Shown here: piece after piece, positions 5,049 to 27,706 of the stretch
Numbering within the stretch: the first letter of the stretch is position 1
How the letters are laid out: each line of letters starts with the position of its first letter
Origin: an uncultured Desulfobacteraceae bacterium
GTDB taxonomy: Bacteria > Desulfobacterota > Desulfobacteria > Desulfobacterales > Desulfobacteraceae
NCBI GenBank assembly: GCA_964021475.1
Contig: CAXHYW010000001.1
Span: 1-27,706, forward strand
Reading direction: 5' to 3'
Length of the DNA: 27,706 nucleotides
Notes under the pieces: model-generated
What the model saw: only the letters and a program-made list of their open reading frames with translations
Database searches by the model: none
Told to the model about the DNA's origin: nothing
Translations under genes and position numbers: made by a program

Positions 5049-5061
5049 CAGGAGATATGAA

Positions 5062-8902: not shown

Positions 8903-11900
8903 ATGGTACTCAGTATAAAAACCGACATACCGGCACTGATATCAACCCGCCATTTTAACCGGACCGAAGAGGGTATTTCCTCCTCCATAGGGCGGTTGTC
9001 AAGCGGGCTTCGCATCAATAAAGCCGCGGATGACAGTTCCGGAATGGTCATTGCAGACAGCCTGACCTCCCAGGCCCTGGGATTGGGCCAGGCCATCCGG
9101 AATGCCAATGATGCCATCTCCATCGTTCAGGTAGCGGATGCAGCTCTGGAAGAGTCCATTAATATTTTAAATACCATTAAAGTGAAAAGTATCCAGGCGG
9201 CCCAGGACGGTCAAACCCTGGAAAGCAGAACGGCCATCCAGTCGGATATTCAACACCTAATTCAAGAGCTTGATAATATCGCCAAAACCACCTCCTTTAA
9301 CGGCCAAAAATTATTGTCGGGCGGGTTCTCTGACAAGTCTTTCCAAATAGGTGCCTATTCAGGGGAGAAGATCGGTTTGTCCATTGGATCTGCAACTGCC
9401 GGCAAGATCGGTCACATGACCACCGGTGATATTGTTGTCCACGACGGCGGGGAAGGGATTGCCTATCTGGGCATAAAAGGGTCGAAAAGCCAAAACATTC
9501 ATGAAATCCAGCCGGTTGAACTGACCTATGATAATTCTCCTGAACACGGCATGGGCGCATTGGCAGATGCAGTCAACAAAATGAGTGAAATCACCGGGGT
9601 AAGGGTCACGGCATCTGTCGAGACGGCAATGGACGGCAGCATACAGCCCGGTATGACCGACATGGATTTTTCCATTAACCGTGTCAAGTTAGGCAGTTTT
9701 TCCGTGGTGTCAAATGATGCCGACGGATCACTTATAAAGGCCATTAATAACAAAACTGTTCTCCACGGCGTGAATGCCTCTGTTAACGACAATGGCGGAC
9801 TTGTATTAACCTCGGTTGACGGAAGGGGGATATGGGTGGAGCCGGAACCGGGCCGGGGAACGGGGATTGATGCTATTTTCAAAGGGAAAAATTTGACCAC
9901 ACTGGGAAAACTGACGGTTCAGGGAAGCGGTGCCGGTATGTTTGAGGTCCGGGATCTGGGGGGGGGAGAACCCGTGGCCCTATCAGATACAGGGCTGAAT
10001 ATCAAAACAGATGCCCTGGTCGAGCGGGATTCAATTTTAACCGCAGGATCCGTCCTGACAAAAAATTCTGTTTTGAATTCACCTTGGACGGCAGATCAGA
10101 CGCTTTCCGGGGATCGTTTTCAAGAGGCCATTCCCATTGAAGAGCAGACCCTTATGGGAAAAGGATCAGTTCTCGGTGAGGAGTCCATATTGCTTACCAA
10201 AAGCGTTCTGCCGGATACCATTTGGGTGAATGGTATGGGCAAGACAGATTCCGAAAGTCTCATAAAAGAAGGGTCCATTCTTAGAAAAGACAGTCGCCTC
10301 GGGGCAGGAACCCAGATTCCTGCGGGTAATATCATCAGCGCCGGTACCCTGTTCAAAGGGGATGCCGTCATTGCGGCCACCCAGGCGACCATAGCATCAA
10401 GTCAGGTAAAAGAAGATTCCATCCTGGAAACTGACACCGTGATCGCATCGGGAAGTATCCTGAAAGGGACCGCTGTTGTGGACGGGTTGGGTCCCATGAC
10501 CGGCAGTGCCATGGTTCGTGCCGGTTCTGTATTGACAGCCGGATCTATCATTGCCTCGGGCACTACTCTCCGGGGAAATGCCACCATTGATGCGATTAAT
10601 AATACAACTGGTATCTACACTATTACTGCCGGGTCAACTCTTGCCGCTAACACCCTGTTTTCATCGGGCACCACCCTGGGTGGTAATGCACAGGTCAACC
10701 AGATTGTCACCACCGGTAATTATGTTTTGGCCAATAATTCCATTCTCAGGAACGGGTCGGTGATCGGGTCCGGCACTGTTTTGACCGGAATTGCCACCAT
10801 CAATGCAACGGGATTGACCACGGGGTCCTATGATCTTGCTATCGGGTCCACCCTGAGGGCAAATTCCATCATCGGGTCCGGCACCCTGTTGTCGGATGCG
10901 GCGGTGGTGACGGCCACAGGTCCCACCACCAGCCCCTATGTTCTGACGGCAACCTCCACGCTCATGGCCAATTCCATTCTGGGGTCTGGTACGGCATTGA
11001 CCAATACTGCCGTCATCAATGCCGTGGGACCCATATCTAATAACTATGTGGCGGCAGCAGGATCTACCCTGGCACCTAACACGGTTCTTGGCACCAGCAC
11101 CATTATTCGAGGCACTGCCACTATTAATGCCATCCCTGCCACGGCCAATGCCGCAGATACCATCAGCCTGGCCACGGGCACCCTCCTGGAAAACAATACC
11201 TTTATTGGTGTGGGCAGTTCCATTACCACCAACCTAGGGGTTCGAAACGGGCCCTTTACCATCGGGGCGGGGGGGGAGACAACCACCATCGGGCCCCAGA
11301 TTTTTCAATTGGAATTGGGTTCCATAGCTGCCGGATCGGTTCTGGCCGACACGTCTGTTATCGGCACTCCTGTCGTTTCCCTTCAGGCGGGAATGAATCC
11401 CGCAGCGCCCATGACCCTGACCGCCGGATCCATCCTGGCCAATAACACCAGTCTTGTGGCAGGATCCGTGGTTGGTCCCCAGGGTATCAGTTTATCGGTC
11501 AACATGAATCTGGCCAACCCCATGACCTTGAATCCGGGTTCAACCATTGCCAACACCTCCAGTCTGGCAGCAGGATCCCAAATCGGTGCCCAGGGGGTTG
11601 AATTGTTTGTGGACATGCTTACCACCGGTGTCATGGCGCTTGAAACTGGTTCAAATCTTGCCAATAACAGCCAGCTTGCAACGGGATCAACGGTTGGGGC
11701 CAATGATATTGACCTGGCATTGGATCTGACGCTCACCACGGGTGCCATGACCTTGCGGTCTGGCAGCACCATTGGAGCAAACAGTGTCTTATGGCAGGGC
11801 TCTGTCATCGGCGCCAACGGGGCGCAATTGAATACTGGCATGGTAACCGGGACCCTCATGACCCTGGAAATCGGATCTGATATGGGTGCCAATACCATTT

Positions 11901-13147
11901 TGAATACCAATTCAATTATCGGCGCTGATGGTGCAAGGCTCCTGGCGGATCTGAATGTCGGGGCGGACATGACATTGGCTGCAGGCTCCAGCCTTTCCAA
12001 TTCAAGCATTCTGGCCTCAGATTCCCTGTTTTCCAATGACAACCTGACCCTGGCCGCTGCCATGACCCTGACAGAGGATATGATGCTTACGGCGGGGTCA
12101 AAAATGGGAAGCAATAGTACGATTCAATACGGATCCTATATCTGGGCGGATGCCACCCTGATCTCCTCCATGACCCTGAGAGATTCGGTTACCCTTGCCA
12201 GCGATATGCGTCTGTCATCTGATTTGATTCTGGGAGTCGACTCAACCCTTGGGGATAACTCTCTATTGATTGAAGGGTCTTCTATCTATCTTTCTTTGGA
12301 GTTGCTCAGCACCATGGAGATGACGGATGAGGTGATCCTGGATTCCGGGTCTCAAATATCTGAAAAGGATACTTCCCTCATCCTTTCCGGTACATGGGTC
12401 GGCGGACGGGCTGTGCTTTCGGATGCCTTGGTTCTAACAGATGATTTTACACTCTCCAGGGGATCTGTGATTGGGAAGGAATCCATTTTGAAAAATGGAT
12501 CAAGCATTGGCGGGATGGTTGAAACTGCATTTACCGAACAGGTGAGCAAGGACGGTGAAATGAGTATTGGACAGGGGTCTGTCCTTGCCAGGGGAAGTCT
12601 TCTTGTCAGGGATACGTTTCTGACCAATGATATTGTTGCATTGGACGGCACGCGGTACAGACGGGGGAGTTTTCTTGATAGCGATCTTGTGGTTGATGAA
12701 AATGTAATATCCCAATCCATGACCCTTGGGCCTGGGTCTGAAATCGCCCCGGGCAGCCTGTTAAATACCAATTCAGAAGGGCAATTTGTGGCCACGGAAA
12801 CAAAGGATATCCAATTGTCAAGACTCTCTGATATCGAGGTTCTTACCCGGGAAGGGGCACAGCGGGCCATCGGGCTGGCAGATGTGGCAATACAAGATCT
12901 TGATGCCATACGGTCAAATCTTGGATCTGTCCAGAATCAACTGACCTCAGCCATTGCAGGGATCACAGCTGCCAAGGTGAATATCTTTGCCTCGGCTTCC
13001 TCCATCCGGGATGTTGATTTCTCCGACGAGATTCAAAACCTGAAAAAACTACAGATCCTCTCTGAAGCCGGTAAGTTTTCCCTATCCAGCTCAAACATCC
13101 GGGCTTCTATGCTGATCAGCCTGCTTACACAGACTGGTCAAAAATAA
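8903..13147 (+). CDS. Giant flagellin, divergent/minor paralogue (1414 aa)
   Basis: Flagellin N-domain RLSSGLRINKAADDSSG...IKVKSIQAAQDGQ...TSFNGQKLLSG.F..FQIGA. C-domain RSNLGSVQNQL...SSIRDVDF. The D0 termini are degenerate and there is a large central repeat insertion. Confidence 0.95.
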   Translation: MVLSIKTDIPALISTRHFNRTEEGISSSIGRLSSGLRINKAADDSSGMVIADSLTSQALGLGQAIRNANDAISIVQVADAALEESINILNTIKVKSIQAAQDGQTLESRTAIQSDIQHLIQELDNIAKTTSFNGQKLLSGGFSDKSFQIGAYSGEKIGLSIGSATAGKIGHMTTGDIVVHDGGEGIAYLGIKGSKSQNIHEIQPVELTYDNSPEHGMGALADAVNKMSEITGVRVTASVETAMDGSIQPGMTDMDFSINRVKLGSFSVVSNDADGSLIKAINNKTVLHGVNASVNDNGGLVLTSVDGRGIWVEPEPGRGTGIDAIFKGKNLTTLGKLTVQGSGAGMFEVRDLGGGEPVALSDTGLNIKTDALVERDSILTAGSVLTKNSVLNSPWTADQTLSGDRFQEAIPIEEQTLMGKGSVLGEESILLTKSVLPDTIWVNGMGKTDSESLIKEGSILRKDSRLGAGTQIPAGNIISAGTLFKGDAVIAATQATIASSQVKEDSILETDTVIASGSILKGTAVVDGLGPMTGSAMVRAGSVLTAGSIIASGTTLRGNATIDAINNTTGIYTITAGSTLAANTLFSSGTTLGGNAQVNQIVTTGNYVLANNSILRNGSVIGSGTVLTGIATINATGLTTGSYDLAIGSTLRANSIIGSGTLLSDAAVVTATGPTTSPYVLTATSTLMANSILGSGTALTNTAVINAVGPISNNYVAAAGSTLAPNTVLGTSTIIRGTATINAIPATANAADTISLATGTLLENNTFIGVGSSITTNLGVRNGPFTIGAGGETTTIGPQIFQLELGSIAAGSVLADTSVIGTPVVSLQAGMNPAAPMTLTAGSILANNTSLVAGSVVGPQGISLSVNMNLANPMTLNPGSTIANTSSLAAGSQIGAQGVELFVDMLTTGVMALETGSNLANNSQLATGSTVGANDIDLALDLTLTTGAMTLRSGSTIGANSVLWQGSVIGANGAQLNTGMVTGTLMTLEIGSDMGANTILNTNSIIGADGARLLADLNVGADMTLAAGSSLSNSSILASDSLFSNDNLTLAAAMTLTEDMMLTAGSKMGSNSTIQYGSYIWADATLISSMTLRDSVTLASDMRLSSDLILGVDSTLGDNSLLIEGSSIYLSLELLSTMEMTDEVILDSGSQISEKDTSLILSGTWVGGRAVLSDALVLTDDFTLSRGSVIGKESILKNGSSIGGMVETAFTEQVSKDGEMSIGQGSVLARGSLLVRDTFLTNDIVALDGTRYRRGSFLDSDLVVDENVISQSMTLGPGSEIAPGSLLNTNSEGQFVATETKDIQLSRLSDIEVLTREGAQRAIGLADVAIQDLDAIRSNLGSVQNQLTSAIAGITAAKVNIFASASSIRDVDFSDEIQNLKKLQILSEAGKFSLSSSNIRASMLISLLTQTGQK
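10028..12772 (+). repeat. ~36-37 aa repeats of [LIV]-x-x-G-[ST]-x hexads in the minor flagellin (~915 aa region, about 20+ units)
   Basis: Examples: SAMVRAGSVLTAGSIIASGTTLRGNATIDAINNTTG (36 aa), SYDLAIGSTLRANSIIGSGTLLSDAAVVTATGPTTS (36 aa), NPMTLNPGSTIANTSSLAAGSQIGAQGVELFVDMLTT (37 aa). Confidence 0.9.
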
Positions 13148-16418: not shown

Positions 16419-19400
16419 CTATTGGAGTAAGCTCAGTACACCCTGGGCGCTGGCATTGGCCTGGCTCATGGCAAAGGTACCGGCCTGCTGCAGTACCTGC
16501 ATCTTGGTGAAGTTGGCAGATTCTTCTGCAAAGTCAACGTCACGGATACTGGATTCTGCCGCGGACACATTTACACGGGTGGTGGAAATGTTGGCAATGG
16601 TTGAACTCAACTGATTCTGAACAGAACCCAAGTCAGCTCTGTTTTTGTCCAGATCTTTGAGGGCCGCATCCGCTACCGCAATGGCAATCTGTGCATCCTC
16701 CTGGGTGAGAACACTCAGGTCGGACAGCCGGTTGACTTCCGATTTGCTGGCTTCTGCCGTTGCAAAGTCACTGGAGGCATCGTTGGGAGCCAACTGGGTG
16801 CCAGCGGCCATGACAGATCCGTTCTGGAGGGTCATGTCAGAGGTCAACGTGGTGTTCGCTCCTACTTCAACAGCATCTTCCAATATGGTGCCCGCAGTAA
16901 AGAGAGTACCGTTCTGGTCGGTGATGTCGGTGGTCAGGTAGGTGTTTTCCGCAATCACACTGCCTGCCGCCAGGGTGGATCCTGAAGTCAGCAACATATC
17001 TATATCAGCGGAAACCGTCTCGTCATTGGCCAGGGTGATAACCCCCCCGATCTCTGAGCCGCTGGTGAGCACAGAACCGTTAGCCATGGTGGACCCGGCT
17101 GCCAAGGTAAAGTCTGCGGTCATGGTGATGTCTCTATCCAAGTCTATCTTCCCGCCCACCGTGGAATCCGCTCCAATGGTGAAGGCGTTGTTCACAACCA
17201 GCTTGGAGCCTGATGCGATATTGGCGTCCGACTGGAGGGTCATATTACCTTTGATGGTGATCTTGGCCGCCACATTGGAACCGTTGGCCAGGGTGGAATC
17301 ATCAATGAGCTTGGATCCTGCCTGGAGGGTCATGTCCTGATCCAGGGTAAAGTCCTGACCGGTAGTAACCTCGGCTCCGACGAAGGAACCTGTTTTCAGG
17401 GTACTGCCGCTGGCAACAATGGATCCTGCCTCGAGGGTCATATCACGGGAAAGAGTGGTGGACCCGCTGGTGCCGAATTTGGCCCCAAGGGAGGAACCTG
17501 CTTTCAGGGTACTTGAACCTTCGAGAATGGATCCGGCCTTCAGGGTCATGTCATCATCAAGGGTTTGCTGTTTATATGCAGTCGTAACATCCGCAGCAAA
17601 TGAAGACCCGTTATCAAGGGAGCTGATACCCTTGAGTTTGGATCCGGTATTCAGGATCATGTCGTTCACTAGGGTCGTTTGAGCACCACTGGCGGTTGTA
17701 ACGTCCGTACCAATGAATGAGCCTGTGGCCAACGAATTAGACCGTCCTGCTGCTGAGGTTAGCTTAGATCCGGAATTCAGGGTCATGTCGTTGGTCAGGG
17801 TAGTTTTACTACTGCTTGTTGTAACATCTGAGTCCAGATAGGATCCTGTGGCCAGTTTGCTGGAGGCTGAGTTTCCAGCACTGTCTAATATGGATCCGGC
17901 CTTCAGGGTGATATCCTCTGCAAAGGTGGTGATTGCCAGGCCTGTGGTTTTGACATCCGCACCAAAGTTAGAGCCTGCACCCAGAATAGTGGCATTAGAT
18001 GCAGTGGCACCAAGGACACTTCCAGCCTTCAGGGTGGTAATCCCGCCGGCTGTAAGGGTCTGGGCATTGGCTGTATCCGTGGTATAGTCCTGGGTCAGGG
18101 TTCCACTAACAGAGAAAGTTGTACCGGATGTAACGTTGATGTACTGACCTGCAGCCAGGGTGGTTCCGGCTTTAAGCGTGGAGCCTGAAGCAATTGTTGA
18201 GTTGTTGGTTAGAACACTGTCTTCAGTGGAGGTATGTACCCCGGATGCCAGGGTGACATTAGAGGTTACAACCGTTCCCTTGCCAATGGTGGAACCTGAT
18301 CCCATGACAGAACCGGCTTTCAGGAGGCTGTCCTGGATCGTTGCTGTGGTGGTTACACCAGATGCCAACAATACATCCCCACCAACCACTGAATTGGCAG
18401 CAATGACCGAACCTGATCCTATTGTGGACGTGGCTTTTAAAAGGCTGTTTCCCACAGTGGTGGAGGTTGATCCTTCTTGTAGTATGGTGGTCCCGCCCAC
18501 GATTGAACCTGCTGCAATGGTGGAACCTGATCCGAGAATAGATCCGGCTTTCAGAGAACTATCTCCTGTGGTTGAGCTGGTTGCACCGGATTTTAGTTCA
18601 ATATCTCCTCCAACAACGGAACCGGCTGCGATTTTGGAGCCTGAAGCGATGATGGATTTAGAGGTGAGGGTGCTGTCCCCCACGGTCTGGCTGGTTGCAA
18701 TACCTGAATTGGTGATAAAATCACCCCCCAGTGTGGTGTTGGCTGCCACAGTGGTGTTGGCCTTGAGGATTGAATCCTCCTTGAGCAGGCTTTCTCCCAC
18801 GGTTTGGGTGGTATTGATGCCAGATGCCATGATCACATCCCCGCCCAATACGGTATTGGCGGCAATCTCTGTTGCGCTCTTCAGGATTGAGCCCTCTGCA
18901 ATGAGGCTTTCTCCGGTGGTGGAAGAGGTGTCCTGAACCTGGACCGTGTCTGTAATGTCAGACCCGCTTGCCAGTTCAGAGGTGGCGATGAGCACGGAGC
19001 CTGTGGCAAAGGTGGAGTTCTGGCTGGTGATGATGTTTGAGTTGCTGATATCATCTCCGGTCATGGCCTGACCAGTGGTCCAGCCTGCAGACAGAGCTGA
19101 CTTGTCAGCGAGAACAGAGCCTGTTTTCAGGTTGGATTCCATGGTGGTCTCACCTGACGCTCCCTTGGTTTCCAGATCGCTGGTCAAGGCGATGGCTGAA
19201 CCGCCGCCAACGTTGTTGACCACAATTTCACTGGAGCCGGTCTGGTTGAGTGTGACAAAGCCCACGGTGGTGAGTTCGTCATCGCTTTGCATCCGAAGAA
19301 CTGCTTTGGTGGCATCTCCACCTGTTAGGTCGTTTGCAGTTGCGCCGGTTTCTACCTTGATGGCCCTGTTGTCCGAGGAGGTCAGGGTCAAAATACCCGA

Positions 19401-20297
19401 TGCGTTCACCGAGGCCACAACGCCGTGACCGGAGGTCTTAGAGTTGATGGCTTTAACCAGGGAGCCGCTGGAATCGTTTGTCTGTACCTCAATGGCACCA
19501 ATGGTTTCTCCGTTGATGCTGAAACCCTTGTCTGTTGTACCGGCCGCAATATTCAAAGCGGTCTCACTTCTCACGGTTGCAGAGGCAGAGATCCCTAAGC
19601 TGTCACTGAGAAGATTTATGGCGTCGGCCACGGCACCCATGCTGTGTTCCCTGTCGATGGAGCCTTCGGTCAGGGACACATCCACGGACTTGATGTTGAA
19701 ATTCTTGTTCTGAAGATTACTGAAAATACTTAAGTCCACAGTACCGGCCTGACCGTTCTGGAGGGTCAGCTGGGTTGTGGTGGTGTGACCGATCTTGGTG
19801 GATTCCGAGCTTGCAATGGAAATTCCTACGGTCTCTCCTGAATAGGCGCCAATCTGAAATTGTTTGTTGGTGAATGCACCGGAAAGGAGCTTCTGATTAT
19901 TAAAAGATGTGGTCTTGGCAATGATGTCCAATTCTTCCATCAGTTTGTTGATATCAGCCTGGATGGCAGATCTTGATTCAGTGGTTTGACCGTCCTGTGC
20001 TGCCTGGATACTTTTGGTTTTGATTGTGTTGATGATGTTGATGGATTCGTCTAGGGCCGCATCAGCGGTCTGTACAATATTGATACCGTCATTGGCATTT
20101 TTGATAGCCTGTCCAAGACCATTGGCCTGGGATCTAAGTGAATCGGCAATGGACATGCCCGATGCATCGTCGGCAGCCTTGTTGATTCTTAAGCCGGATG
20201 ACAGTCTTTCAAGGGAGCTTGAAAGGGCGTTGTCATTTTTGATCATGTTTTTGTGTGCGTTCAGAGATGCGACGTTGGTATTGATTCGAAGTGCCAT
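16419..20297 (-). CDS. fliC: Giant major flagellin (1292 aa)
   Basis: Canonical start MALRINTNVASLNA...RLSSGLRINKAADDASG and canonical end RDVDFAEESANFTKMQVLQQAGTFAMSQANASAQGVLSLLQ. The start is the ATG at 20297 (GGAGG RBS), not the GTG at 20399. It has its own sigma28 promoter and terminator. Confidence 0.98.
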   Translation of the reverse strand: MALRINTNVASLNAHKNMIKNDNALSSSLERLSSGLRINKAADDASGMSIADSLRSQANGLGQAIKNANDGINIVQTADAALDESINIINTIKTKSIQAAQDGQTTESRSAIQADINKLMEELDIIAKTTSFNNQKLLSGAFTNKQFQIGAYSGETVGISIASSESTKIGHTTTTQLTLQNGQAGTVDLSIFSNLQNKNFNIKSVDVSLTEGSIDREHSMGAVADAINLLSDSLGISASATVRSETALNIAAGTTDKGFSINGETIGAIEVQTNDSSGSLVKAINSKTSGHGVVASVNASGILTLTSSDNRAIKVETGATANDLTGGDATKAVLRMQSDDELTTVGFVTLNQTGSSEIVVNNVGGGSAIALTSDLETKGASGETTMESNLKTGSVLADKSALSAGWTTGQAMTGDDISNSNIITSQNSTFATGSVLIATSELASGSDITDTVQVQDTSSTTGESLIAEGSILKSATEIAANTVLGGDVIMASGINTTQTVGESLLKEDSILKANTTVAANTTLGGDFITNSGIATSQTVGDSTLTSKSIIASGSKIAAGSVVGGDIELKSGATSSTTGDSSLKAGSILGSGSTIAAGSIVGGTTILQEGSTSTTVGNSLLKATSTIGSGSVIAANSVVGGDVLLASGVTTTATIQDSLLKAGSVMGSGSTIGKGTVVTSNVTLASGVHTSTEDSVLTNNSTIASGSTLKAGTTLAAGQYINVTSGTTFSVSGTLTQDYTTDTANAQTLTAGGITTLKAGSVLGATASNATILGAGSNFGADVKTTGLAITTFAEDITLKAGSILDSAGNSASSKLATGSYLDSDVTTSSSKTTLTNDMTLNSGSKLTSAAGRSNSLATGSFIGTDVTTASGAQTTLVNDMILNTGSKLKGISSLDNGSSFAADVTTAYKQQTLDDDMTLKAGSILEGSSTLKAGSSLGAKFGTSGSTTLSRDMTLEAGSIVASGSTLKTGSFVGAEVTTGQDFTLDQDMTLQAGSKLIDDSTLANGSNVAAKITIKGNMTLQSDANIASGSKLVVNNAFTIGADSTVGGKIDLDRDITMTADFTLAAGSTMANGSVLTSGSEIGGVITLANDETVSADIDMLLTSGSTLAAGSVIAENTYLTTDITDQNGTLFTAGTILEDAVEVGANTTLTSDMTLQNGSVMAAGTQLAPNDASSDFATAEASKSEVNRLSDLSVLTQEDAQIAIAVADAALKDLDKNRADLGSVQNQLSSTIANISTTRVNVSAAESSIRDVDFAEESANFTKMQVLQQAGTFAMSQANASAQGVLSLLQ
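16782..19142 (-). repeat. ~36-42 aa hexad repeats in the major flagellin (~787 aa region, about 18-20 units)
   Basis: Examples: ESLLKEDSILKANTTVAANTTLGGDFITNSGIATSQTVG (39 aa), DSSLKAGSILGSGSTIAAGSIVGGTTILQEGSTSTTVG (38 aa), RDMTLEAGSIVASGSTLKTGSFVGAEVTTGQDFTLD (36 aa). Confidence 0.9.
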
Positions 20298-20303: not shown

Positions 20304-20341
20304 TCCTCCATGTTGTGTTGTTCCCGGGAATCCTTTCCCGG
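20304..20341 (-). promoter_or_regulatory. CsrA-type binding sites in the fliC leader
   Basis: Hairpin CCGGGAA-AGGA-UUCCCGG (20341-20324) has GGA in the loop. A second site, AUGGAGGA (20311-20304), overlaps the Shine-Dalgarno. This is the arrangement known for B. subtilis hag. Confidence 0.75.
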
Positions 20342-20390: not shown

Positions 20391-20412
20391 CAGGATCACC
20401 TCCTTTGTCCTG
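20391..20412 (-). promoter_or_regulatory. Leader hairpin containing a 14-nt perfect complement of the 16S rRNA 3' end (orphan extended SD)
   Basis: The mRNA reads CAGGA-CAAAGGAGGUGA-UCCUG. AAAGGAGGUGAUCC (20406-20393) is the reverse complement of the 16S terminus GGAUCACCUCCUUU. Confidence 0.6.
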
Positions 20413-20433: not shown

Positions 20434-20460
20434 GTATCGGATCTATTTCAAAATTCTTTA
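20434..20460 (-). promoter_or_regulatory. sigma28 (FliA) promoter of the major flagellin
   Basis: TAAA-GAATTTTGAAATAGA(15)-TCCGATAC against the consensus TAAA-N15-GCCGATAA, with an AT-rich tract upstream. Confidence 0.85.
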
Positions 20461-20471: not shown

Positions 20472-20498
20472 TAAGGTTGCGTTTTTTTTTCCCGACTG
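20472..20498 (+). promoter_or_regulatory. Possible divergent sigma28-like promoter for maf-rSAM, with a T9 tract in the spacer
   Basis: TAAG-N15-CCCGACTG has correct spacing and a CCGA core, but the -10 box is only 4/8. Confidence 0.3.
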
Positions 20499-20554
20499 TA
20501 ATTATAAACTCCCAAGTGAGGAGAAATGGTTATATTCAAATGGAGAACGGGTTG

Positions 20555-23437
20555 ATGGGCGTATCGGAAAAAACGGTTTATGGGAAAAATATATCCCTGT
20601 TAAAGAAAAATCATCCTTCGGCGTGGAGTGCTCTCATCATGGCGAAAGAGACGGAAAAAAAGATGTCTTCCCATGAGATAGAGTTGATTCATGCTGATAA
20701 TGACAGACCCAATCTCCTGGCGAAGGATGCACAGGGTGAAACCGTTCTGATCCATGATGAAGAAAATCCCGGCAGTGAATCTGAATCTTTTATTTCAATG
20801 TTTGAACAAGACTCCACTGGGGTTGTATTGGTGTTTGGGATGGGACTGGGCTATTTGCCCCTTGAATTGTTGAAACAGAGAAAAAAACTTCAGTATGTTT
20901 TCATTTTTGAATTGGATCCTGAATGTTTTAATATTGCCCTGGCGCATATGGATCTTACCCCCCTTTTTGATGATAAGCGGGTGATCCTTTCCATCGGATA
21001 TCCGGAAAATGTTGCCGGGTTTCTTAGACCCGCAAAACGCGCCCTGATGCTGGAAGATATCCATACCCACAAGTTTGCGCCGTTGTTTCAACTGAACGAT
21101 GCCTATGAAGATCTTGCTTCGGTCGTTTTTGATCTTGTCAGCGAGTACAATATTGAGGGTGCCACCCAATCCCTTCACGGAAAAACTTTTGTTGAGAACA
21201 GACTAAAACATCTCACCTCCATGCACCATGACAACCGGTTGGAACAACTTGCAGAAAAATATAAAGGTGTTCCGGCTTTGATCATAGCTGCCGGTCCTTC
21301 TTTGGATAAAAATATCCAGGAGATTAAAAGGGCTGTTGGTAAAGCGGTTCTTATCTGTGTGGATACGGCCCTTCCTGCGCTTTTCAATCATGGTATAACG
21401 CCCGATTTTGTAACATCAATAGATTATAATGCGCCCACTTATGAAAAGATAGCCGATCTGGCTTTGGATCCGAGGAGCCAAGGGATTAATCTCATCTGCA
21501 CCTCATGGGTGGCGACCACGGTTTCAAAAATTTTCCCAGCCAGGGATATTTTCTGGGCGTTTGGCGAGACCCCTTTTGAAAATTGGATCAACAGGTCTCT
21601 GGGCGGGACCATGAATATCGGGGGCGCCGGAACAGTGGCTCATTTGAATTTTTTATCGGCCAAAATATTGGGATGCGATCCAATTATTTTTGTGGGGCAA
21701 GACCTTGCATACTCTTACAGCAAAGAGCATGCTTCCCAGGTGGTCTTTACTGGGACCGAATCCATGGAAAAGATTTTGGAAGATGCTGTCTGGGTAAAAG
21801 GGGTTAATGAGGCGCAGGTGCCCACAACCCGTGGAATGCACAGCTACAGAATTATATTTGAGCAATGGATAGAGCAGTCAGAGATCCGGACGGTTAATGC
21901 CACCGAAGGCGGGGCATGGATAGAGGGGGCTGAACATATGTCCCTTTCCCGGGCCATTGATTTGTTTTGCAATGATGATATCAGTATGAATATTGAGACT
22001 GCTCGTAAAAGGAGGGATCCATCCAAAACTATGGTCTCCATGCTGAAAAAAGTGGAGCAGGCTGAAAAGACAATCAAAAAGGCAGAAAAGCTTGCCGATT
22101 CGGTTTTAAAGGAAGTCCGTAAACTCAAGGGGAAAAAAAGGGGATTGACCCGTTTTAATGTACTTCCCCATAAGTTCCAAAATCAGATTATCACCCTGGA
22201 TTCTTTATATAATGAATCTGATAGAAATTCATTATGGGAAATGTTTAATGAGATGACCATGGAGGGGCTCAGGCAGGATGAGAGAGATAAAAATGAGATC
22301 GAAAGGCTTGAAGATGTGCCGGAAAAATATTTGGAGTGGCTCTCCAAAAATGTAAAGCGAACCGACCGGGTCAATTTAATCAGGCGGGATAATTTGACTG
22401 ATTTGAAAAGCAAGCTCAATTTTTTGGTTTCTTTTTATGGTCAAGAAAAAAAAATATCGGGGCAGATGGAAAACGGTAGTCAGGACCTGTCCGATGTGCT
22501 GTCACTTGCAGAACTCTATTACCAAAATGGTGACTATAGGCTCCTGGATCATTTTTTGAAAAAATACACAGGGGAAGACTCTGCGGCCATTTGTTTTTAT
22601 CGGGGTGTGATTTTATTGTATCGAAGGGGGTATGGGAAATCAGATCACTATTTCAACCGGGCTTTAACCCTGGATGGGGCATATAAACAGAAAATTGATG
22701 CCAAGCGGCGGGAAATGTCTGATTATTACTATGACTGGGCCCTGACAGTTCCCTTTGATGCTCTGATTGGGCTGGAAAGCAAAACCGGTCTCCACATGCG
22801 TTTAAAGGGAATAAAATGTTTTCCTGGACATGAGCTTTTGAAAGACGGATTCAGGGAGCTTGCCAGGATGGATTTTGATAAAGTTCTGGACAACATTAAG
22901 CAGGGAGAAGGTGGGAATCTTCTCTTTATCAAAGAAACTCTGAACGCCTGGGTTGAGTTATTAATGAATGAAGATGTGATTCATCAATGCATACCAGAGG
23001 ACCTTGAAGCAGCATTCTTCCGTCATTTGGGTAAGATCTTGCTGGATGAAGGAAAGCATGACAAAGTCCTTGAAATCTATGAACGTGCTCTGGTCCTTTT
23101 ACCTGACAGGCCTGAGCTTTATGTCGCATTGACCGATCTTTGTTTTTCCATGGAAGACTTTGATAAAGGATTTGAATATCTCAAGACGGCAGTATCCTTG
23201 GATATAAACTGTGCTGTTTATTGGAACCATATTGGGGAAAACCTCCAGGCCCGAGGGGATTTCCAGGGCGCTATCATTTCATATGAGAACTATTTTACGG
23301 TTCTACCCGAAAAGATAGAGTCTTTGAAGAAAATCAGTGACTGTTATTTAAAACTGGGTAAGATTGAGGCTGCTGGTGAGGTCCAAAAGAGATTTGAGAA
23401 TTTGTTTCAGGGTAATGGGGATACTAAAAAACAATGA
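20555..23437 (+). CDS. maf: Motility-associated factor (Maf / DUF115 MptE-like) flagellin glycosyltransferase with C-terminal TPRs (960 aa)
   Basis: N-domain VLVFGMGLGY..FIFELD. DUF115 core PALIIAAGPSLDKN..LICVDTAL..GITPDFVTSID, GTVAH..A.ILGCDPIIFVGQDLAY, VNATEGGA.IEG. TPR-like helices at the C-terminus. I chose the ATG at 20555 because of a GGAGA RBS. Confidence 0.9.
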   Translation: MGVSEKTVYGKNISLLKKNHPSAWSALIMAKETEKKMSSHEIELIHADNDRPNLLAKDAQGETVLIHDEENPGSESESFISMFEQDSTGVVLVFGMGLGYLPLELLKQRKKLQYVFIFELDPECFNIALAHMDLTPLFDDKRVILSIGYPENVAGFLRPAKRALMLEDIHTHKFAPLFQLNDAYEDLASVVFDLVSEYNIEGATQSLHGKTFVENRLKHLTSMHHDNRLEQLAEKYKGVPALIIAAGPSLDKNIQEIKRAVGKAVLICVDTALPALFNHGITPDFVTSIDYNAPTYEKIADLALDPRSQGINLICTSWVATTVSKIFPARDIFWAFGETPFENWINRSLGGTMNIGGAGTVAHLNFLSAKILGCDPIIFVGQDLAYSYSKEHASQVVFTGTESMEKILEDAVWVKGVNEAQVPTTRGMHSYRIIFEQWIEQSEIRTVNATEGGAWIEGAEHMSLSRAIDLFCNDDISMNIETARKRRDPSKTMVSMLKKVEQAEKTIKKAEKLADSVLKEVRKLKGKKRGLTRFNVLPHKFQNQIITLDSLYNESDRNSLWEMFNEMTMEGLRQDERDKNEIERLEDVPEKYLEWLSKNVKRTDRVNLIRRDNLTDLKSKLNFLVSFYGQEKKISGQMENGSQDLSDVLSLAELYYQNGDYRLLDHFLKKYTGEDSAAICFYRGVILLYRRGYGKSDHYFNRALTLDGAYKQKIDAKRREMSDYYYDWALTVPFDALIGLESKTGLHMRLKGIKCFPGHELLKDGFRELARMDFDKVLDNIKQGEGGNLLFIKETLNAWVELLMNEDVIHQCIPEDLEAAFFRHLGKILLDEGKHDKVLEIYERALVLLPDRPELYVALTDLCFSMEDFDKGFEYLKTAVSLDINCAVYWNHIGENLQARGDFQGAIISYENYFTVLPEKIESLKKISDCYLKLGKIEAAGEVQKRFENLFQGNGDTKKQ

Positions 23438-25461
23438 AGAAATTAAAAATTTATTTGTGTGATTTTGTTCATAATTATTTCAGGGCGTCAAAGGATACCT
23501 ATACGGTTCCACTGAATATCGGGCTCATTGGTGCAAATGTCAAAAAAAGACTTGGGGTTTCAGTTGAAGTCAAATTATTCAAATATCCTGATGTACTGAT
23601 TGACGCTGTAAAGTCAGAACCACCCAATATAATAGGGTTTTCATGGTATATGTGGAATGAGAACCTTTCCACCCATATGGCAAAGATGGTAAAGGAATCT
23701 TACCCTAAGGTTCTGACCGTATTCGGCGGGCCCAACATAGATCCTTCGGTCAACGCTATAGAGGACTGGCTTCAAAAATATCCTTATATCGACTATCTTA
23801 TCCCTTTTGAAGGCGAGCAGGTGTTCGCAGATATTGCAGACGCTTTCTTGGAAACACAGAGTATAGAAAAATTAAAACAGAAAAAAATATCTGGAGCTGC
23901 AAGTTTTTCAGGCAAACTACACTATCCAAAGGTTGACATTAAAAAACCCAGGGATATTGATTATCCTTCTGCCTATCTGTCCGGAATGCTAGACGAATTT
24001 CTGGCGGACCCCCATCTTCACCCCGTATTCGAAACCAATAGGGGATGCCCCTTTTCATGTACCTATTGTGTATGGGGATGCGCCAACAACAATTTTATGA
24101 GGATGTGGCCCTATGAGCAGATAATGGATGAGTTTGACTATGTGGATAAAAGGGCTGCCAACAGAGATTCATGGATCATTGCAGATGCCAATTTCGGTAT
24201 TGTTAAACGGGATATTGAGTTTGCGGAACGGCTGGGGTATATCAGTGAAAAGAAACCGGGTATCAAAGATATTGTCATCTGGGATACAAAGAATAATATG
24301 AACCGGACCATCGAGATCGCTGATAAACTGAAAAAAAAATACAGCTCGTTAATTGCCTTTCAATCCCTGGATGAAGAGGTCCTTAAGAATGTGAAAAGAG
24401 ATAATATTCGTCTGTCTTCTTTTACCCGGCATATGGATTATCTCAAGGGGAAAAATATCAATACCGAGACCCATATTCTCACCGGATTGCCAGGCGAAAC
24501 ATATGAAAAACATTTGGTTTCTCTCAGGAAATGTTTTGATTTAGGTATTCAGGAGATAACGGCAAACGAAACCATGATGCTTTCCGGTTCTGAGATGGCA
24601 ATGGAAGAAACCAGAACACAATATAAGATGAAAACCAAATATCGGTTGCAGAGAAACGCCTATGGATATTATTGGAATGACTGGATCATCGAATCAGAAG
24701 AATTGATCACCCAGACAGATTCAATGGATGGGGAAGAGAACCTGAAATTGAAACTGCTCCATTTTTTCATCTGGATTTTTTGGAATTCCAATATTTTAAA
24801 GCCGATTTTGACTACTGCCCATTCCCAGGGTATCAACCCAGTGGATATAATGGTTCGGGCAATGGAAGCTGGAGATAAAATTTCTCCTGAGTATTCAAAA
24901 ACTTTGGCCGATTACCTGGACGAAGCAAGACAAGAGCTTTTTGATACAAAAGAGGCGTTGAATTTATTCTACACGAACCAGGAAGATACAGCCCGGGCAT
25001 TACAGTCATTTGTTTATTTGAATCACAAATTTGCCCCCATGATTTTATTCAATCCAAATATGGTCCAATCTATTATTGATTTTATTGAAAAGGACATCCT
25101 TGACCAGGGGATATCTTCCGGATGCAAATTTGATTTGGGAGAAATCAAGGCCTTTACCCTGAAAAGGCTTTGTCTGAACCTGACCGATCTTGAAACCAGG
25201 AGGGAAATATCCATCTCCGGGGAAACAGCCGATTATCTTTTCAAAAACGGATTAATTCCACAGGCACCTGGAGGCAACCCCTATGCCGGAGCCTCTAAAG
25301 TATCCATTGGATTTACTCAATCGAAAAAGGAAATAATACGGGAAAAACTGGGGGGCGTAAGTCTCCTTGACCACGGGACCATGGGCGCGCTTTTAATTAC
25401 CTTGCCCTTTCTCAAGGATACGATTTATTCTGTAGAATGCTTTGACCTTGTTTCCGCCTGA
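23434..25461 (+). CDS. Cobalamin-binding radical SAM protein (class B methylase-like, 675 aa)
   Basis: N-terminal B12-binding domain (PLNIGLIGA..PNIIGFSWYMWN..VFGGPN..GEGE-like FEGEQ). Radical SAM motif ETNRGCPFSCTYC (CxxxCxxC). The start overlaps the maf stop (ATGA), indicating translational coupling. Confidence 0.92.
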   Translation: MKKLKIYLCDFVHNYFRASKDTYTVPLNIGLIGANVKKRLGVSVEVKLFKYPDVLIDAVKSEPPNIIGFSWYMWNENLSTHMAKMVKESYPKVLTVFGGPNIDPSVNAIEDWLQKYPYIDYLIPFEGEQVFADIADAFLETQSIEKLKQKKISGAASFSGKLHYPKVDIKKPRDIDYPSAYLSGMLDEFLADPHLHPVFETNRGCPFSCTYCVWGCANNNFMRMWPYEQIMDEFDYVDKRAANRDSWIIADANFGIVKRDIEFAERLGYISEKKPGIKDIVIWDTKNNMNRTIEIADKLKKKYSSLIAFQSLDEEVLKNVKRDNIRLSSFTRHMDYLKGKNINTETHILTGLPGETYEKHLVSLRKCFDLGIQEITANETMMLSGSEMAMEETRTQYKMKTKYRLQRNAYGYYWNDWIIESEELITQTDSMDGEENLKLKLLHFFIWIFWNSNILKPILTTAHSQGINPVDIMVRAMEAGDKISPEYSKTLADYLDEARQELFDTKEALNLFYTNQEDTARALQSFVYLNHKFAPMILFNPNMVQSIIDFIEKDILDQGISSGCKFDLGEIKAFTLKRLCLNLTDLETRREISISGETADYLFKNGLIPQAPGGNPYAGASKVSIGFTQSKKEIIREKLGGVSLLDHGTMGALLITLPFLKDTIYSVECFDLVSA

Positions 25462-25470: not shown

Positions 25471-26628
25471 TTATTTCGTTAGGGTACATTGGGGCTGGCA
25501 GACTCCTTTGTAGTTAATCGTATAGGTTTGGGTTTCACATTGGAAGTGAAGGGTATGTTCAAAATCAAAATCCAGGCGTTGATCGTTTTTAATCCTGGTT
25601 TGTGTCTGTTCCAAGGCTTTTGCAAAGAACAATCTCATGGATAATCCCATTCCATGCTCCATATGTTTTATATAGCGACCGTCGATATCTTTTTCCGTGT
25701 AGATTTCCATTTGAACGTCAAAGCCAATTTCTTTTAAGGCGTTGACAAGTTTCAACTTTTCTTCTGTATTGGAAATGATGTCTATGTTGGCGTGTACGCA
25801 TCTATAAATGGTTTTTTGGTTGCCTGCCTTACCCATCACAGCCAGGTGCTTTTCGGGAAAGCTCCTAATTTGTTTTCTGTCTTCATTGAAATAATTGGGC
25901 ATAAACGGCTGATGGGTCCATGGAGTGATAACATTCAATTCTAAAATGACGTTGGGAGGGAGGTTGCCGGTAAATTCGGATAAGTTCAGTTCCTGGCCTT
26001 TGATGTACTTCAGACTGGGGGCTGCCCAGGAGGAGTTGTCAAAGACAGCATTCAGGGTGCAGGGTGCCAGTTTTGATATAAGATTGGCAATGTAGCCTCC
26101 GTATGAACTGCCAATGGCATAGATGGTTTTAGGAATTTGGGGGTAGTTAAGAAATAGATCATTGATGGCGAAAATATGATCCAGAGCTGGAAGAAGTCCA
26201 AAATTCTGATAATCATTTTTACCCGGATAAAGGGTCCCGGGGATAACCAGAGGAGTGGTAGGGTCTGCTTTCATTTCAGCTGCCCTGGACATGATGTCAT
26301 CAATGTTTTCATGGTGGGTGAGGCCTGTGAATGACCGAAGCAGTTTCAATGTCTCCATCTCTATTCTGACGGCAGCCCCGTTGTCGGGGCGGGAAAAAAT
26401 ACAGTGGTAGTCAACTGACAGGCAGGCCATTCGGTAATTTTGGCATATATGGTTTTGAAAATTTTCCCTATAAGATCCGGCATCCTCTCCAAATCCGGCA
26501 ATATAAACCACAAGACCAATAATTTCTTCTTTGTCCGGGATGGCAAGAGAGTAATCGATTGTCCTTTTTATATTACTGGCGAGTTCAAAATCTTCATGGG
26601 CCTGAATGGTGTGTCGAAAAAGAGTCAT
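25471..26628 (-). CDS. DUF2920 family protein (alpha/beta-hydrolase-like)
   Basis: Motifs [47 protein letters not shown]...VFDNS and [13 protein letters not shown] match DUF2920 proteins as I recall them from Campylobacter flagellar glycosylation loci. GxSxG nucleophile elbow present. Confidence 0.8.
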
Positions 26629-26657
26629 CCTGTTTCCCTAAAGTTTTTTGATTGGTC

Positions 26658-27660: not shown

Positions 27661-27706
27661 AGATCGGAAGAGCACACGTCTGAACTCCAGTCACTCCGGA
27701 GAATCT
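27661..27706 (+). other. Illumina TruSeq adapter read-through with i7 index TCCGGAGA (technical artefact)
   Basis: AGATCGGAAGAGCACACGTCTGAACTCCAGTCAC-TCCGGAGA-ATCT is an exact match to the TruSeq indexed adapter layout; the index corresponds to D702 as I recall it. Confidence 0.99.

What the first reader, a model, noticed from the sequence alone, without database searches (positions are those of the whole stretch)
16782..19142. Major flagellin carries a paralogous, independently diversified ~787 aa Ser/Thr-rich solenoid
Seen: the entry and exit segments are homologous to those of the minor flagellin (AGWTTGQAMTGD vs SPWTADQTLSGD; NTYLTTDITDQNG...DMTLQNGS vs DTFLTNDIVALDG...SMTLGPGS). The inner repeats differ: arm 1 has [DE]S.L..GS units of 37-39 aa, there is a hinge at ~18150-18035, and arm 2 has DMTL..GS units of 36-42 aa. 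One unit (DSSLKAGS...STTVG) is 14/38 Ser+Thr. Near-identical DNA motifs (GGATCCGGCCTTCAGGGT at ~17530 and ~17893 on +) suggest ongoing duplication. Inference: rod length is tuned by repeat gain and loss. The surface is a regular lattice of hydroxyls for dense O-glycosylation or for mineral, ice or surface binding. The specific function is speculative.
Basis: partly seen in the sequence, partly recalled or inferred. Interest (0 to 1): 0.85.

Follow-up and report, generated by a model that had tools for sequence, protein, structure and literature searches.

The report
Giant flagellin with hairpin beta-helix rod
This is a real 1292-residue flagellin of a marine sulfate-reducer-type bacterium. Its surface-exposed middle is about 130 six-residue repeats of the kind that build beta-helix rods, probably folded as an out-and-back hairpin and probably sugar-coated. 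The family is already in public databases and was met earlier in this scan, so it is mainly an interesting structural target.

Summary
Observation confirmed. Every quoted motif, unit spacing and DNA word is present in the flagellin gene at 16419-20297(-), and 16782-19142 corresponds to residues 386-1172.

The "Ser/Thr-rich solenoid" is a canonical hexapeptide repeat (Pfam Hexapep 1.4e-19). It runs for about 130 consecutive hexads in 36-42-residue super-units.

The gene belongs to a large family of Desulfobacterales/Desulfobulbia flagellins of 790-2011 aa. These have a Helicobacter/Campylobacter-type core, and a Maf glycosyltransferase gene lies divergently upstream in 55 of 77 loci. This scan met the family before on other DNA.

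New here:
- A split-chain prediction on a 792-aa relative (ipSAE 0.82, controls ≤0.01, about 640 contacts) indicates that the outgoing and returning arms interleave into one rod.
- Arm lengths stay balanced, with about six more units per arm in this protein.
- Family lengths cluster in steps of about 77 aa.

Not supported:
- "Ongoing duplication" in this gene. The DNA copies are only 60-80% alike, Tandem Repeats Finder finds nothing, and four orthologues at 57-73% identity keep the same unit count.
- A pure surface hydroxyl lattice. About 40% of the Ser/Thr sit at inward-facing repeat positions.
- Ice or mineral binding. There is no evidence for it.

The parts
16419..20297 (-). Flagellin A gene, 1292 aa plus stop. 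The start is the ATG at 20297, not the upstream GTG at 20399.
19758..20297 (-). N-terminal D0/D1 helices (residues 1-180).
   Evidence: Pfam Flagellin_N at residues 5-143, E 5.4e-45. The relative's model has helices at the equivalent place.
19143..19757 (-). FlaA/FlaB-type outer domains D2/D3 (residues 181-385).
   Evidence: Residues 1-316 match C. jejuni FlaA 6x80 (E 9e-79) and residues 1-405 match H. pylori 9ygu. NCBIfam flagellin B matches residues 1-406.
18153..19142 (-). Arm 1 (outgoing), residues 386-715: two degenerate units and six clear hexapeptide super-units of 37-39 aa (GxSxLxxGS...TSSTT).
   Evidence: It includes the entry motif AGWTTGQAMTGD at residue 404.
18033..18152 (-). Hinge, inferred distal tip (residues about 716-755). 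It carries a weaker copy of the exit 'cap' motif.
   Evidence: The cap HMM gives 33 bits at residues 700-741, against 19 bits or less for any other inner unit. Orthologue indels cluster here. The equivalent stretch of the relative does not touch arm 2 in the prediction.
17007..18032 (-). Arm 2 (returning), residues 756-1097: about nine DMTLxxGS-type units of 31-50 aa.
   Evidence: The DNA repeat families have 108/111/126-nt spacing.
16782..17006 (-). Base of the rod (residues 1098-1172): the exit cap unit (NTYLTTDITDQNG...) and a last partial unit (DMTLQNGS).
   Evidence: The cap HMM gives 54 bits at residues 1107-1146. This is the best-predicted part of the repeat region in the A model, at pLDDT 73-90. 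It is homologous to B residues 1237-1279.
16422..16781 (-). C-terminal D1/D0 helices (residues 1173-1292).
   Evidence: Pfam Flagellin_C at residues 1207-1291, E 3.6e-27.
20435..20460 (-). Sigma28-like promoter, TAAA-N15-TCCGATAC. GGAGG lies at 20305-20309.
   Evidence: Read from the sequence. This is a consensus match only.
20477..23437 (+). Maf-type flagellin glycosyltransferase with a TPR tail, divergent from the flagellin gene.
   Evidence: Pfam MptE-like 3.3e-36 and Maf_flag10_N. NCBIfam PseD 4.5e-37, which is below that model's cut-off. A homologue lies upstream of the flagellin in 55 of 77 related loci.
8903..13147 (+). Paralogous giant flagellin B (1414 aa) with the same two-arm hexapeptide architecture.
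   Evidence: In the tree, B groups only with the B-type copy of a Desulfobacter MAG.

Best explanation
The gene encodes a structural flagellin. Its core (D0, D1 and FlaA-like outer domains) is of the Helicobacter/Campylobacter type.

In place of the outermost domain it carries 787 residues of canonical hexapeptide repeats, [LIV]-x-x-[GDN]-[ST]-x, about 130 hexads in all. These are grouped in super-units of six hexads, which would be two beta-helix turns.

The chain runs out along arm 1 (residues 386-715), reverses at a tip (about 716-755) and runs back along arm 2 (756-1172). Most likely the turns of the two arms interleave, so that one long hairpin is wound into a single triangular beta-helix rod. 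If every hexad is stacked, the rod has about 43 layers and is roughly 20 nm long. The last two arm-2 units would form the base next to D1.

Because each outgoing unit needs a returning partner, the rod can only grow or shrink by paired units. One unit in each arm is about 77 aa. That would explain the stepped lengths of the family (about 800, 885, 965, 1035, 1120, 1200, 1250-1300, 1410, 1500 aa).

The rod thickens or bristles the filament. It is probably O-glycosylated on its exposed Ser/Thr by the adjacent Maf enzyme with a nonulosonic acid.

Shown: the gene, the repeat type, the family, the synteny and the arm balance.
Predicted: the interleaving, on a relative.
Inferred: rod length, glycosylation and mechanical role.
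For: Flagellin identity and core type. H. pylori FlaA 9ygu gives Z 36, with 453 of 508 residues aligned to the 792-aa relative.

Hexapeptide fold:
- Pfam Hexapep 1.4e-19 and LbH_EIF2B 9e-15.
- The PDB sequence hits to the insert are left-handed beta-helix proteins (LpxA, GlmU, LpxD, gamma-carbonic anhydrase).
- A register parse places 766 of 787 residues in hexads. Position 0 is mostly L/I/V and position 4 is 62% Ser/Thr.
- Positions 0 and 4 are the best conserved among orthologues, at 0.70 and 0.76 against 0.60-0.65 for the other positions.
- The AF2 model of relative P0109 has pLDDT 90-96 across its repeat region, with one short strand per hexad.

Interleaved hairpin:
- The two arms of P0109 folded as separate chains score ipSAE 0.82 against a best control of 0.01. 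That mark was reached by 58 of 80 solved complexes and 2 of 110 mismatched pairs.
- There are about 640 contacts. Every residue of 350-461 touches 489-602, while the tip (462-488) and base (603-659) do not. Two rods lying side by side, or stacked end to end, would bury far fewer residues.

Balanced arms:
- Arm 2 minus arm 1 is +45 to +53 aa in about 100 base-size proteins and +33 to +62 aa in 1247-1305-aa proteins from at least three clades. In A the arms are 355 and 405 aa.
- By unit count, A has about six more units in each arm than P0109.

Stepped lengths: see the histogram. With a 77-aa period and the phase fixed at 806 aa the statistic is 0.37, P=0.0016.

Growth at the tip in two matched blocks: the 2011-aa sister-clade protein L008 has its extra 720 aa at the hinge. 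It has two DNA tandem arrays placed symmetrically about an irregular midpoint.

Glycosylation.
Against: - The interleaving rests on one predictor, run on a split chain of a relative. It was read from a contact list, because no coordinates could be inspected.
- AF2 on A itself was not confident (repeat region pLDDT 30-65). For this protein the geometry is therefore by homology.
- The length periodicity weakens to P=0.065 when lengths are collapsed to distinct values. It is not significant at 50% identity clustering, and the clusters are not phylogenetically independent.
- Several lineages (for example P0161, L064, P0007, L031) keep a cap motif at the ancestral hinge position, about residues 455-490. 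They appear to have grown only downstream of it, so paired growth is not the only mode, or the hinge was mislocated there.
- In pairwise alignment the hinge-to-exit likeness in A is no better than exit-to-ordinary-unit likeness.
- A regular left-handed beta-helix does not by itself explain the 36-residue super-period.
- There are no data on filaments, glycans or expression.
Confidence: 0.6

Rival explanations
1. The two arms fold as two separate, ordinary single-start left-handed beta-helices lying antiparallel side by side or in a V. This is the classical picture of two LbH domains joined by a hinge. The rod would then be about 10 nm long instead of about 20 nm.
For: All known hexapeptide-repeat structures are single-start parallel helices, and the PDB hits are of that kind. 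Arm 1 and arm 2 have distinct unit consensus sequences. Both arms end in a similar cap-like motif, as expected after duplication of a complete module. Balanced arms would also be required in this geometry.
Against: The split-chain prediction gives about 640 inter-arm contacts and has every residue of arm 1 touching arm 2. Two prisms sharing one face would bury only about a third of the residues.
Confidence: 0.25
2. The rod's main role is specific binding through an ordered Thr/Ser surface, to mineral, ice or a cell surface. On this view thickening or glycan display would be secondary.
For: Exposed positions are Thr-rich: position 5 is 44% Ser/Thr, mostly Thr, and there are T-[LIV]-T strings. 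The region is acidic, with pI 4.2. From general knowledge, insect antifreeze beta-helices use Thr ladders. A published giant flagellin with a negatively charged surface was suggested to adhere to mineral surfaces (PMC11532411).
Against: No assay or homology supports binding. 96 of 241 Ser/Thr are at inward positions. The outward positions are the least conserved among orthologues, which fits a variable or glycan-covered surface better than a precise binding lattice. A Maf enzyme next door predicts that the hydroxyls are capped by sugars. The source is a marine metagenome, and related sequence occurs in hydrothermal-vent and sediment metagenomes, which are not specifically icy habitats.
Confidence: 0.08
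3. The repeat region is a fast-evolving, largely unstructured low-complexity spacer with no defined fold. It would be tolerated because outer flagellin regions are dispensable.
For: The composition is biased, at 31% Ser+Thr and 12% Gly. AF2 confidence for A itself is low. Outer domains are non-essential in many bacteria (PMC8931119 abstract).
Against: The hexad register is strict, with only 21 out-of-register residues in 787. The structural positions are the ones conserved. Unit number is conserved across genera. The relative's model is confident. There are 360 homologues at E<=0.001 among long proteins.
Confidence: 0.04

Closest known systems
Helicobacter pylori FlaA/FlaB and Campylobacter jejuni FlaA flagellins (PDB 9ygu, 9yh1, 6x80), with Maf/Pse-dependent O-glycosylation
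   Same: The D0/D1 and inner outer-domain sequence and fold match: A residues 1-316 against 6x80 give E 9e-79, and the 792-aa relative against 9ygu gives Z 36. The gene neighbourhood is Maf, then flagellin, then fliD-fliS-flaG. A has a sigma28-like promoter and there is a second flagellin in the flgK-flgL operon.
   Different: Those proteins are 508-576 aa with globular outer domains. Here 320 to about 1500 residues of hexapeptide repeat replace or extend the outermost part. Glycosylation is not shown here.
Giant flagellins (>1000 aa) of Thomson et al. 2018 (PMC6248924), studied in Bermanella marisrubri and Oleibacter marinus
   Same: The size class is the same and the insert lies between the D1 segments. 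That paper raises the out-and-back topology problem and the idea that filament thickness scales with insert size. Its survey lists delta-proteobacterial examples.
   Different: Their insert consists of duplicated 'DE' domains plus a 'DX' insert in gamma-proteobacteria. It has no hexapeptide repeat. I found no paper describing a hexapeptide/LbH flagellin domain.
Left-handed beta-helix (hexapeptide-repeat) domains of acyltransferases and gamma-carbonic anhydrases (LpxA, LpxD, GlmU; Pfam PF00132)
   Same: The sequence motif and register are the same. The Pfam, NCBIfam and PDB sequence hits to the insert are to these proteins.
   Different: Those are 5-10-turn, single-start, parallel, trimeric enzyme domains. 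Here there are about 43 turns, no enzyme module (NCBIfam scores are 32-48 bits against cut-offs of 160-242), a six-hexad super-period, and a predicted hairpin-interleaved antiparallel arrangement.
The same flagellin family, noted earlier in this scan on other genomes (e1-3573787, e1-2372994, e1-2431747; giant FlgL with a similar insert, e1-4275298)
   Same: These are hexapeptide-repeat outer domains in flagellins of sulfate-reducer-type bacteria. The earlier verdict was a known protein family and an undescribed outer-domain type.
   Different: Those notes, as far as they were shown, treat the insert as a single beta-helix rod. The two-arm interleaving, arm balance, stepped lengths and orthologue unit-count constancy were worked out here.

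Membership tests
Bacterial flagellin (FliC/FlaA family) | N-terminal and C-terminal helical D0/D1 regions (PF00669 and PF00700) at the two ends of one polypeptide. | tested here: met
   E 5.4e-45 and E 3.6e-27, at residues 5-143 and 1207-1291.
Bacterial flagellin (FliC/FlaA family) | Flagellar gene context (fliD, fliS, flaG, fliW, flgK, flgL). | tested here: met
   All are in the window. fliD, fliS and flaG follow the gene in 43-51 of 77 related loci.
Bacterial flagellin (FliC/FlaA family) | Polymerises into the filament. | not testable with these tools
   No filament data. These two giant genes were the only flagellins found in the 83%-complete MAG.
Epsilonproteobacterial-type glycosylated flagellin (FlaA/FlaB) | Outer-domain sequence similarity beyond D1, and a Maf-family transferase in the locus. 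| tested here: met
Epsilonproteobacterial-type glycosylated flagellin (FlaA/FlaB) | O-linked nonulosonic acid on surface Ser/Thr. | not testable with these tools
   Only indirect evidence: two NeuB-family and CMP-transferase gene pairs elsewhere in the genome.
Hexapeptide-repeat left-handed beta-helix (PF00132 clan) | Tandem [LIV]-[GAED]-x2-[STAV]-x hexapeptides in an unbroken register. | tested here: met
   Pfam 69 bits against a cut-off of 27. About 130 hexads, with 21 residues out of register.
Hexapeptide-repeat left-handed beta-helix (PF00132 clan) | Three hexads per 18-residue triangular left-handed coil. | tested here: inconclusive
   The models show one short strand per hexad, but no coordinates were available to check handedness or coil size. 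Sequence and DSSP show a 36-residue period, not an 18-residue one.
Hexapeptide-repeat left-handed beta-helix (PF00132 clan) | Single-start parallel stacking of successive turns of one continuous segment. | tested here: not met
   The prediction on the relative has the outgoing and returning segments touching along their whole length. This is a prediction only, so the protein is filed as 'hexapeptide-repeat solenoid' and not as a classical LbH domain.
Hexapeptide-repeat acyltransferase / gamma-carbonic anhydrase enzymes | A full-length match to an enzyme family model, including substrate-binding parts. | tested here: not met
   LpxD and NeuD models score 32-48 bits against cut-offs of 160-242, and only on the repeat.
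Giant flagellins of the Oceanospirillales type (DE/DX regions) | A DE-region domain in the insert. | not tested
   The DE HMM was not available. The insert's own homologues were flagellins of Thermodesulfobacteriota wherever a source named them, and most were unnamed.
Beta-helical antifreeze / ice-binding proteins | A flat face with a regular T-x-T (or equivalent) ladder, and ice-binding activity. | not tested
   Only composition by register was examined: Thr is 38% of position 5 and 18% of position 1. No face geometry or assay.

The most novel reading that the evidence does not exclude
The outer domain is a fold topology not described for hexapeptide repeats. It would be one very long beta-hairpin wound into a two-start, antiparallel triangular beta-helix. 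Its length (about 8 nm in 800-aa members, about 20 nm here, up to about 40 nm in the 2011-aa relative) could change only in quanta of one unit per arm. These bacteria would then carry glycan-coated, bristle-covered or very thick flagella whose diameter is set genetically by repeat number.
Probability: 0.35. Interest if true: 0.7.

Novelty: new variant of a known kind. Interest (0 to 1): 0.5.

Why it matters
Flagellin outer domains are a showcase of protein diversification, yet only a few have known structures. The largest solved so far gives a 24-nm filament (PMC11532411).

A hexapeptide-repeat rod is an outer-domain type I could not find described in print. If the hairpin-interleaved geometry holds, three things follow:
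- It adds a new way to build a beta-solenoid.
- It gives a simple physical rule, paired unit gain, for how a surface appendage changes size in evolution.
- It provides a natural, length-programmable, self-assembling nanorod displayed in thousands of copies per filament.

It also predicts unusually thick or hairy flagella in common marine sediment sulfate reducers. Cultured relatives exist, so this can be checked with a simple electron micrograph.

Against this, the gene is an ordinary structural flagellin of an already catalogued family, and no new biological system is implied.

Tried and rejected
- **AF2 on A itself** (residues 61-1251, 27-sequence alignment): mean pLDDT 61.5, repeat region 30-65. 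It was not usable for geometry.
- **ESM Atlas look-alikes for the insert:** no usable hit.
- **Foldseek and VIA-align searches of the relative's full model:** dominated by flagellin cores and helical bundles. They gave no separate match for the rod.
- **Mapping length differences by pairwise alignment of related proteins:** gap placement in repeats was too ambiguous to show paired insertions.
- **Scanning the family with arm-1 and arm-2 unit HMMs to count units per arm:** the cross-hits were too noisy.
- **Period search on lengths without a fixed phase:** the best period was 76 aa, but the many 800-aa proteins inflate the statistic. It was not significant at 50% identity clustering.
- **Hinge-to-exit 'cap' homology by pairwise alignment in A:** no better than exit against ordinary units. 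Only the HMM singles out the hinge.
- **Strain-level repeat variation:** three DNA runs from one study hold the gene identically, with no indels or joints. Depth is only about 5x, the data are contigs, and the runs are probably the MAG's own source, so this is weak.
- **Metatranscriptome run:** it holds only 90-95%-alike fragments of conserved parts, so it gives no expression evidence for this gene.
- **Non-flagellin long proteins hit by the insert** (2300-2660 aa): three have no Pfam domain, and one 1533-aa protein has Hexapep only. They were not pursued.
- **Literature searches for hexapeptide or beta-helix flagellins:** found nothing relevant.
Full report
**1. What is there**

The window is one whole contig of an 83%-complete, 975-contig MAG. 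The DNA is held by marine metagenomes. The window is a flagellar locus with this gene order:
- flgN, flgK (1432 aa), flgL (1038 aa) and fliW;
- flagellin B (8903-13147+, 1414 aa);
- on the other strand flaG, fliS, fliD and flagellin A (16419-20297-, 1292 aa);
- then, divergently, a Maf-type transferase with a TPR tail, a B12-radical-SAM enzyme, a DUF2920 protein and a GDP-mannose-4,6-dehydratase-family (GDP_Man_Dehyd, PF16363) protein.

The listed ORF for A begins at a GTG at 20399. However, the flagellin N-terminus MALRINT starts at the ATG at 20297, 7 nt after a GGAGG. A TAAA-N15-TCCGATAC sigma28-like box lies at 20435-20460. The genome search found only these two flagellins besides FlgL.

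**2.

The finding's coordinates are residues 386-1172 of A. Every quoted peptide is at the stated place in A or B. The arm-1 and arm-2 units have the stated spacings. The quoted unit has 14 Ser+Thr in 38 residues. The 18-nt DNA word occurs exactly at 17529 and 17892.

Autocorrelation peaks at lags 6 and 36-39. DNA repeat families are spaced 108, 111, 117 and 126 nt.

**3. What the repeat is**

Both A and B hit Pfam Hexapep (1.4e-19 and 2.6e-15) and LbH_EIF2B. The weak PDB sequence matches of the insert are left-handed beta-helix proteins such as LpxA, GlmU, LpxD and gamma-carbonic anhydrases.

A simple register parse threads 766 of the 787 residues into about 130 consecutive hexads:
- position 0 is L/I/V/F/M;
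- position 3 is G/D/N;
- position 4 is 62% Ser/Thr;
- position 5 is 44% Ser/Thr, mostly Thr.

This is the classical [LIV]-[GAED]-x2-[STAV]-x motif. From established knowledge of LpxA-type structures, positions i and i+4 point into the prism. On that basis 96 of the 241 Ser/Thr are structural and inward-facing, and 142 are at turn or outward positions. Positions 0 and 4 are also the most conserved among orthologues. The 'hydroxyl lattice' is therefore partly just the fold's consensus. The genuinely exposed Ser/Thr are at positions 5, 1 and 2 and in the TSSTT-type bulges that lengthen arm-1 units from 36 to 37-39 residues.

**4. The core**

Residues 1-316 match C. jejuni FlaA (6x80, E 9e-79), and residues 1-405 match an H. 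pylori flagellin (9ygu). NCBIfam's best models are flagellin B and flagellin A.

In the AF2 model of a 792-aa relative, 453 of the 508 residues of H. pylori FlaA superpose (Z 36). The repeat is therefore an insertion at the tip of an otherwise complete FlaA-like flagellin.

**5. The family**

A word-indexed search restricted to long proteins found 360 homologues of the insert. Almost all are flagellins carrying Hexapep hits. Where a source names them, they are from Desulfobacter, Desulfobacula, Desulfospira, Desulfobotulus, Desulforapulum, Thermodesulfatator and unnamed Thermodesulfobacteriota.

An exhaustive HMMER scan of 1.84 billion cluster representatives found only 68 clusters. The scan of species genomes gave 519 confirmed loci. 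AlphaFold DB holds a 1246-aa cluster representative that aligns over its whole length with the relative's model.

This scan had already met the family on other genomes (e1-3573787, e1-2372994, e1-2431747) and had met a giant FlgL with a similar insert (e1-4275298). I found no paper that describes a hexapeptide or left-handed beta-helix flagellin domain. The survey of giant flagellins (PMC6248924) and the structural clustering of outer domains (PMC11532411) do not mention one in the passages searched.

**6. Paralogy and repeat stability**

A and B align end to end at 36.5% identity. In a tree of the conserved parts, A groups with four orthologues. These are two MAGs labelled Desulfobacula and Desulfobacter, Desulfobacter latus and one unnamed MAG, and the 2011-aa protein L008 is sister to that group. 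B groups only with the B-type copy of the same Desulfobacter MAG, on a long branch. The duplication is therefore old.

The four orthologues, at 57-73% identity, have exactly the same number of units. Their length differences (1246-1292 aa) come from 1-8-residue indels in loops.

Tandem Repeats Finder finds no array in this gene. Unit copies are 60-80% identical at DNA level. The exact 18-mer is just the conserved TLKAGS codons, with flanks that are 64-70% identical. Three metagenome runs hold the gene with no difference or indel. This is low depth from one study, so the evidence is weak. 'Ongoing duplication' is therefore not supported for this gene.

It is visible in the relative L008. All of its extra 720 residues sit at the hinge and are near-perfect LGSGTT/LGAGTV and IGSGAT/LHGAGAT hexads. 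It has two DNA tandem arrays, with periods of 36/72/108 nt and 39/78 nt. They correspond to residues 913-1042 and 1323-1415 and lie symmetrically about the least regular stretch, 1140-1200.

**7. Geometry**

Flagellin topology requires the insert to leave and re-enter next to D1. A straight 43-turn rod cannot do that, so the chain must reverse.

AF2 on A itself was not confident. AF2 on the 792-aa relative P0109, with a 77-sequence alignment, gave pLDDT 90-96 over the repeats.

I then folded the two arms of that relative as separate chains:
- ipSAE was 0.82 in three runs, against 0.01 or less in three controls. That mark was reached by 58 of 80 solved complexes and 2 of 110 mismatched pairs.
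- There were about 640 inter-chain contacts.
- Every residue of 350-461 touches 489-602.
- Residues 462-488 (the tip) and 603-659 (the base) do not.

End-to-end stacking would involve only a turn or two. Two prisms side by side would bury about a third of each arm. The contact pattern fits the turns of the two arms alternating in one stack, that is, a long hairpin wound into one beta-helix.

This is a prediction on a relative, and I read it from a contact list and not from coordinates. I give it about 60%.

**8. Arm balance and stepped lengths**

Unit bookkeeping gives the following counts:

| Protein | Arm 1 | Arm 2 |
|---|---|---|
| P0109 (792 aa) | about 2.5 units plus a cap-like unit | 3 units plus a cap unit plus a partial unit |
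| A (1292 aa) | 8 units plus a cap-like unit | 9 units plus a cap unit plus a partial unit |

A therefore has about six more units in each arm than P0109.

An HMM of the cap motif finds its best inner hit at the hinge. With that hinge, arm 2 minus arm 1 is +45 to +53 aa in about 100 base-size proteins. It is +33 to +62 aa in 1247-1305-aa proteins of at least three clades, and in A the arms are 355 and 405 aa.

Family lengths form classes near 800, 888, 965, 1035, 1120, 1200, 1245-1310, 1340, 1410 and 1500 aa. With the period predicted from the unit sizes (77 aa) and the phase fixed at the base class, the clustering statistic is 0.37, P=0.0016, for 38 clusters at 60% identity. It falls to 0.27, P=0.065, after collapsing to distinct lengths. 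This is suggestive but not proven, and the clusters are not independent.

There are exceptions. Several lineages keep a cap motif at the ancestral position and seem to have grown only after it.

**9. Function**

The Maf gene (MptE-like, Maf_flag10_N, PseD-like) lies divergently upstream of the flagellin in 55 of 77 loci. The genome also has two NeuB-family genes, each near a CMP-transferase-family match. In Campylobacter and Helicobacter, the nearest solved relatives, Maf-dependent nonulosonic-acid O-glycosylation of surface Ser/Thr is established knowledge. I infer the same here. The sugar and the sites are unknown.

The rod itself most plausibly thickens or bristles the filament. The insert is acidic (pI 4.2) and has no Cys. 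Nothing tested here speaks for ice or mineral binding.

**10. Verdict**

This is a real feature. It was accurately described and sensibly interpreted in outline. It belongs to a catalogued protein family that this scan has met before.

Its value is structural. It is an undescribed outer-domain type with a testable, possibly new hairpin-solenoid topology and a paired-repeat growth rule.

Noticed in passing
L008:9820-15855 (Desulfobacula sp. MAG LigF6_bin14): This is a 2011-aa flagellin, sister to A's clade. Its extra 720 residues at the hinge are near-perfect LGSGTT/LGAGTV and IGSGAT/LHGAGAT hexads. Two DNA-level tandem arrays (periods 36/72/108 nt and 39/78 nt) lie symmetrically about an irregular midpoint. 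It is the clearest case of recent repeat expansion in the family.
   Followed up: partly
window 750-8178 (+): FlgK (1432 aa) and FlgL (1038 aa) are also several times the usual size, while FliD (561 aa) is normal. Giant FlgL homologues of about 1020-1450 aa accompany the flagellin in many related loci.
   Followed up: no
window 23434-25461 (+): A B12-binding radical SAM enzyme overlaps the end of maf. Its best NCBIfam match is a KedN5-type C-methyltransferase (6e-45, far below the model's cut-off). A homologue is next to maf in only 1 of 77 related loci, so it is not part of the conserved module.
   Followed up: partly
window 25471-27677 (-): A DUF2920 protein and a GDP-mannose-4,6-dehydratase-family (GDP_Man_Dehyd, PF16363) protein follow the maf/rSAM pair. 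Homologues of the latter (matched with the window's protein) are near maf in 17 of 77 loci and of DUF2920 in 4. This may be part of a flagellin sugar pathway.
   Followed up: partly
family members P0161, L064, P0122, P0125, P0007, L031: These longer flagellins keep a strong cap motif at the ancestral hinge position (about residues 455-490) and carry all extra repeats after it. Either there is a second growth mode or a nested hairpin. The simple paired-growth rule does not explain this.
   Followed up: no
proteins P0136, P0155, P0156, P0165 (2300-2660 aa): These very long proteins match the flagellin insert (E 1e-6 to 1e-16). The three scanned (P0136, P0155, P0156) have no Pfam domain at all; P0165 was not scanned. 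The same repeat may be used outside flagellins.
   Followed up: partly
window 16521-19948, run X7: A 2016 marine-sediment metatranscriptome holds short contigs 90-95% identical to conserved parts of this gene. This suggests that close relatives' giant flagellins are transcribed in situ. The pieces are too few and too divergent to say anything about this gene.
   Followed up: partly
hinge and exit of the repeat region (A residues 700-741 and 1107-1146; P0109 residues 445-485 and 607-647): Both arms end in a similar motif, G-T-[YV]-L-[ST]-x-[ND]-I-T...G-G...A-G-[ST]-L. This suggests that the two-arm domain arose by duplication of one capped module. The motif is strong in 800-aa members (40-60 bits) and weaker at A's hinge (33 bits).
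   Followed up: partly
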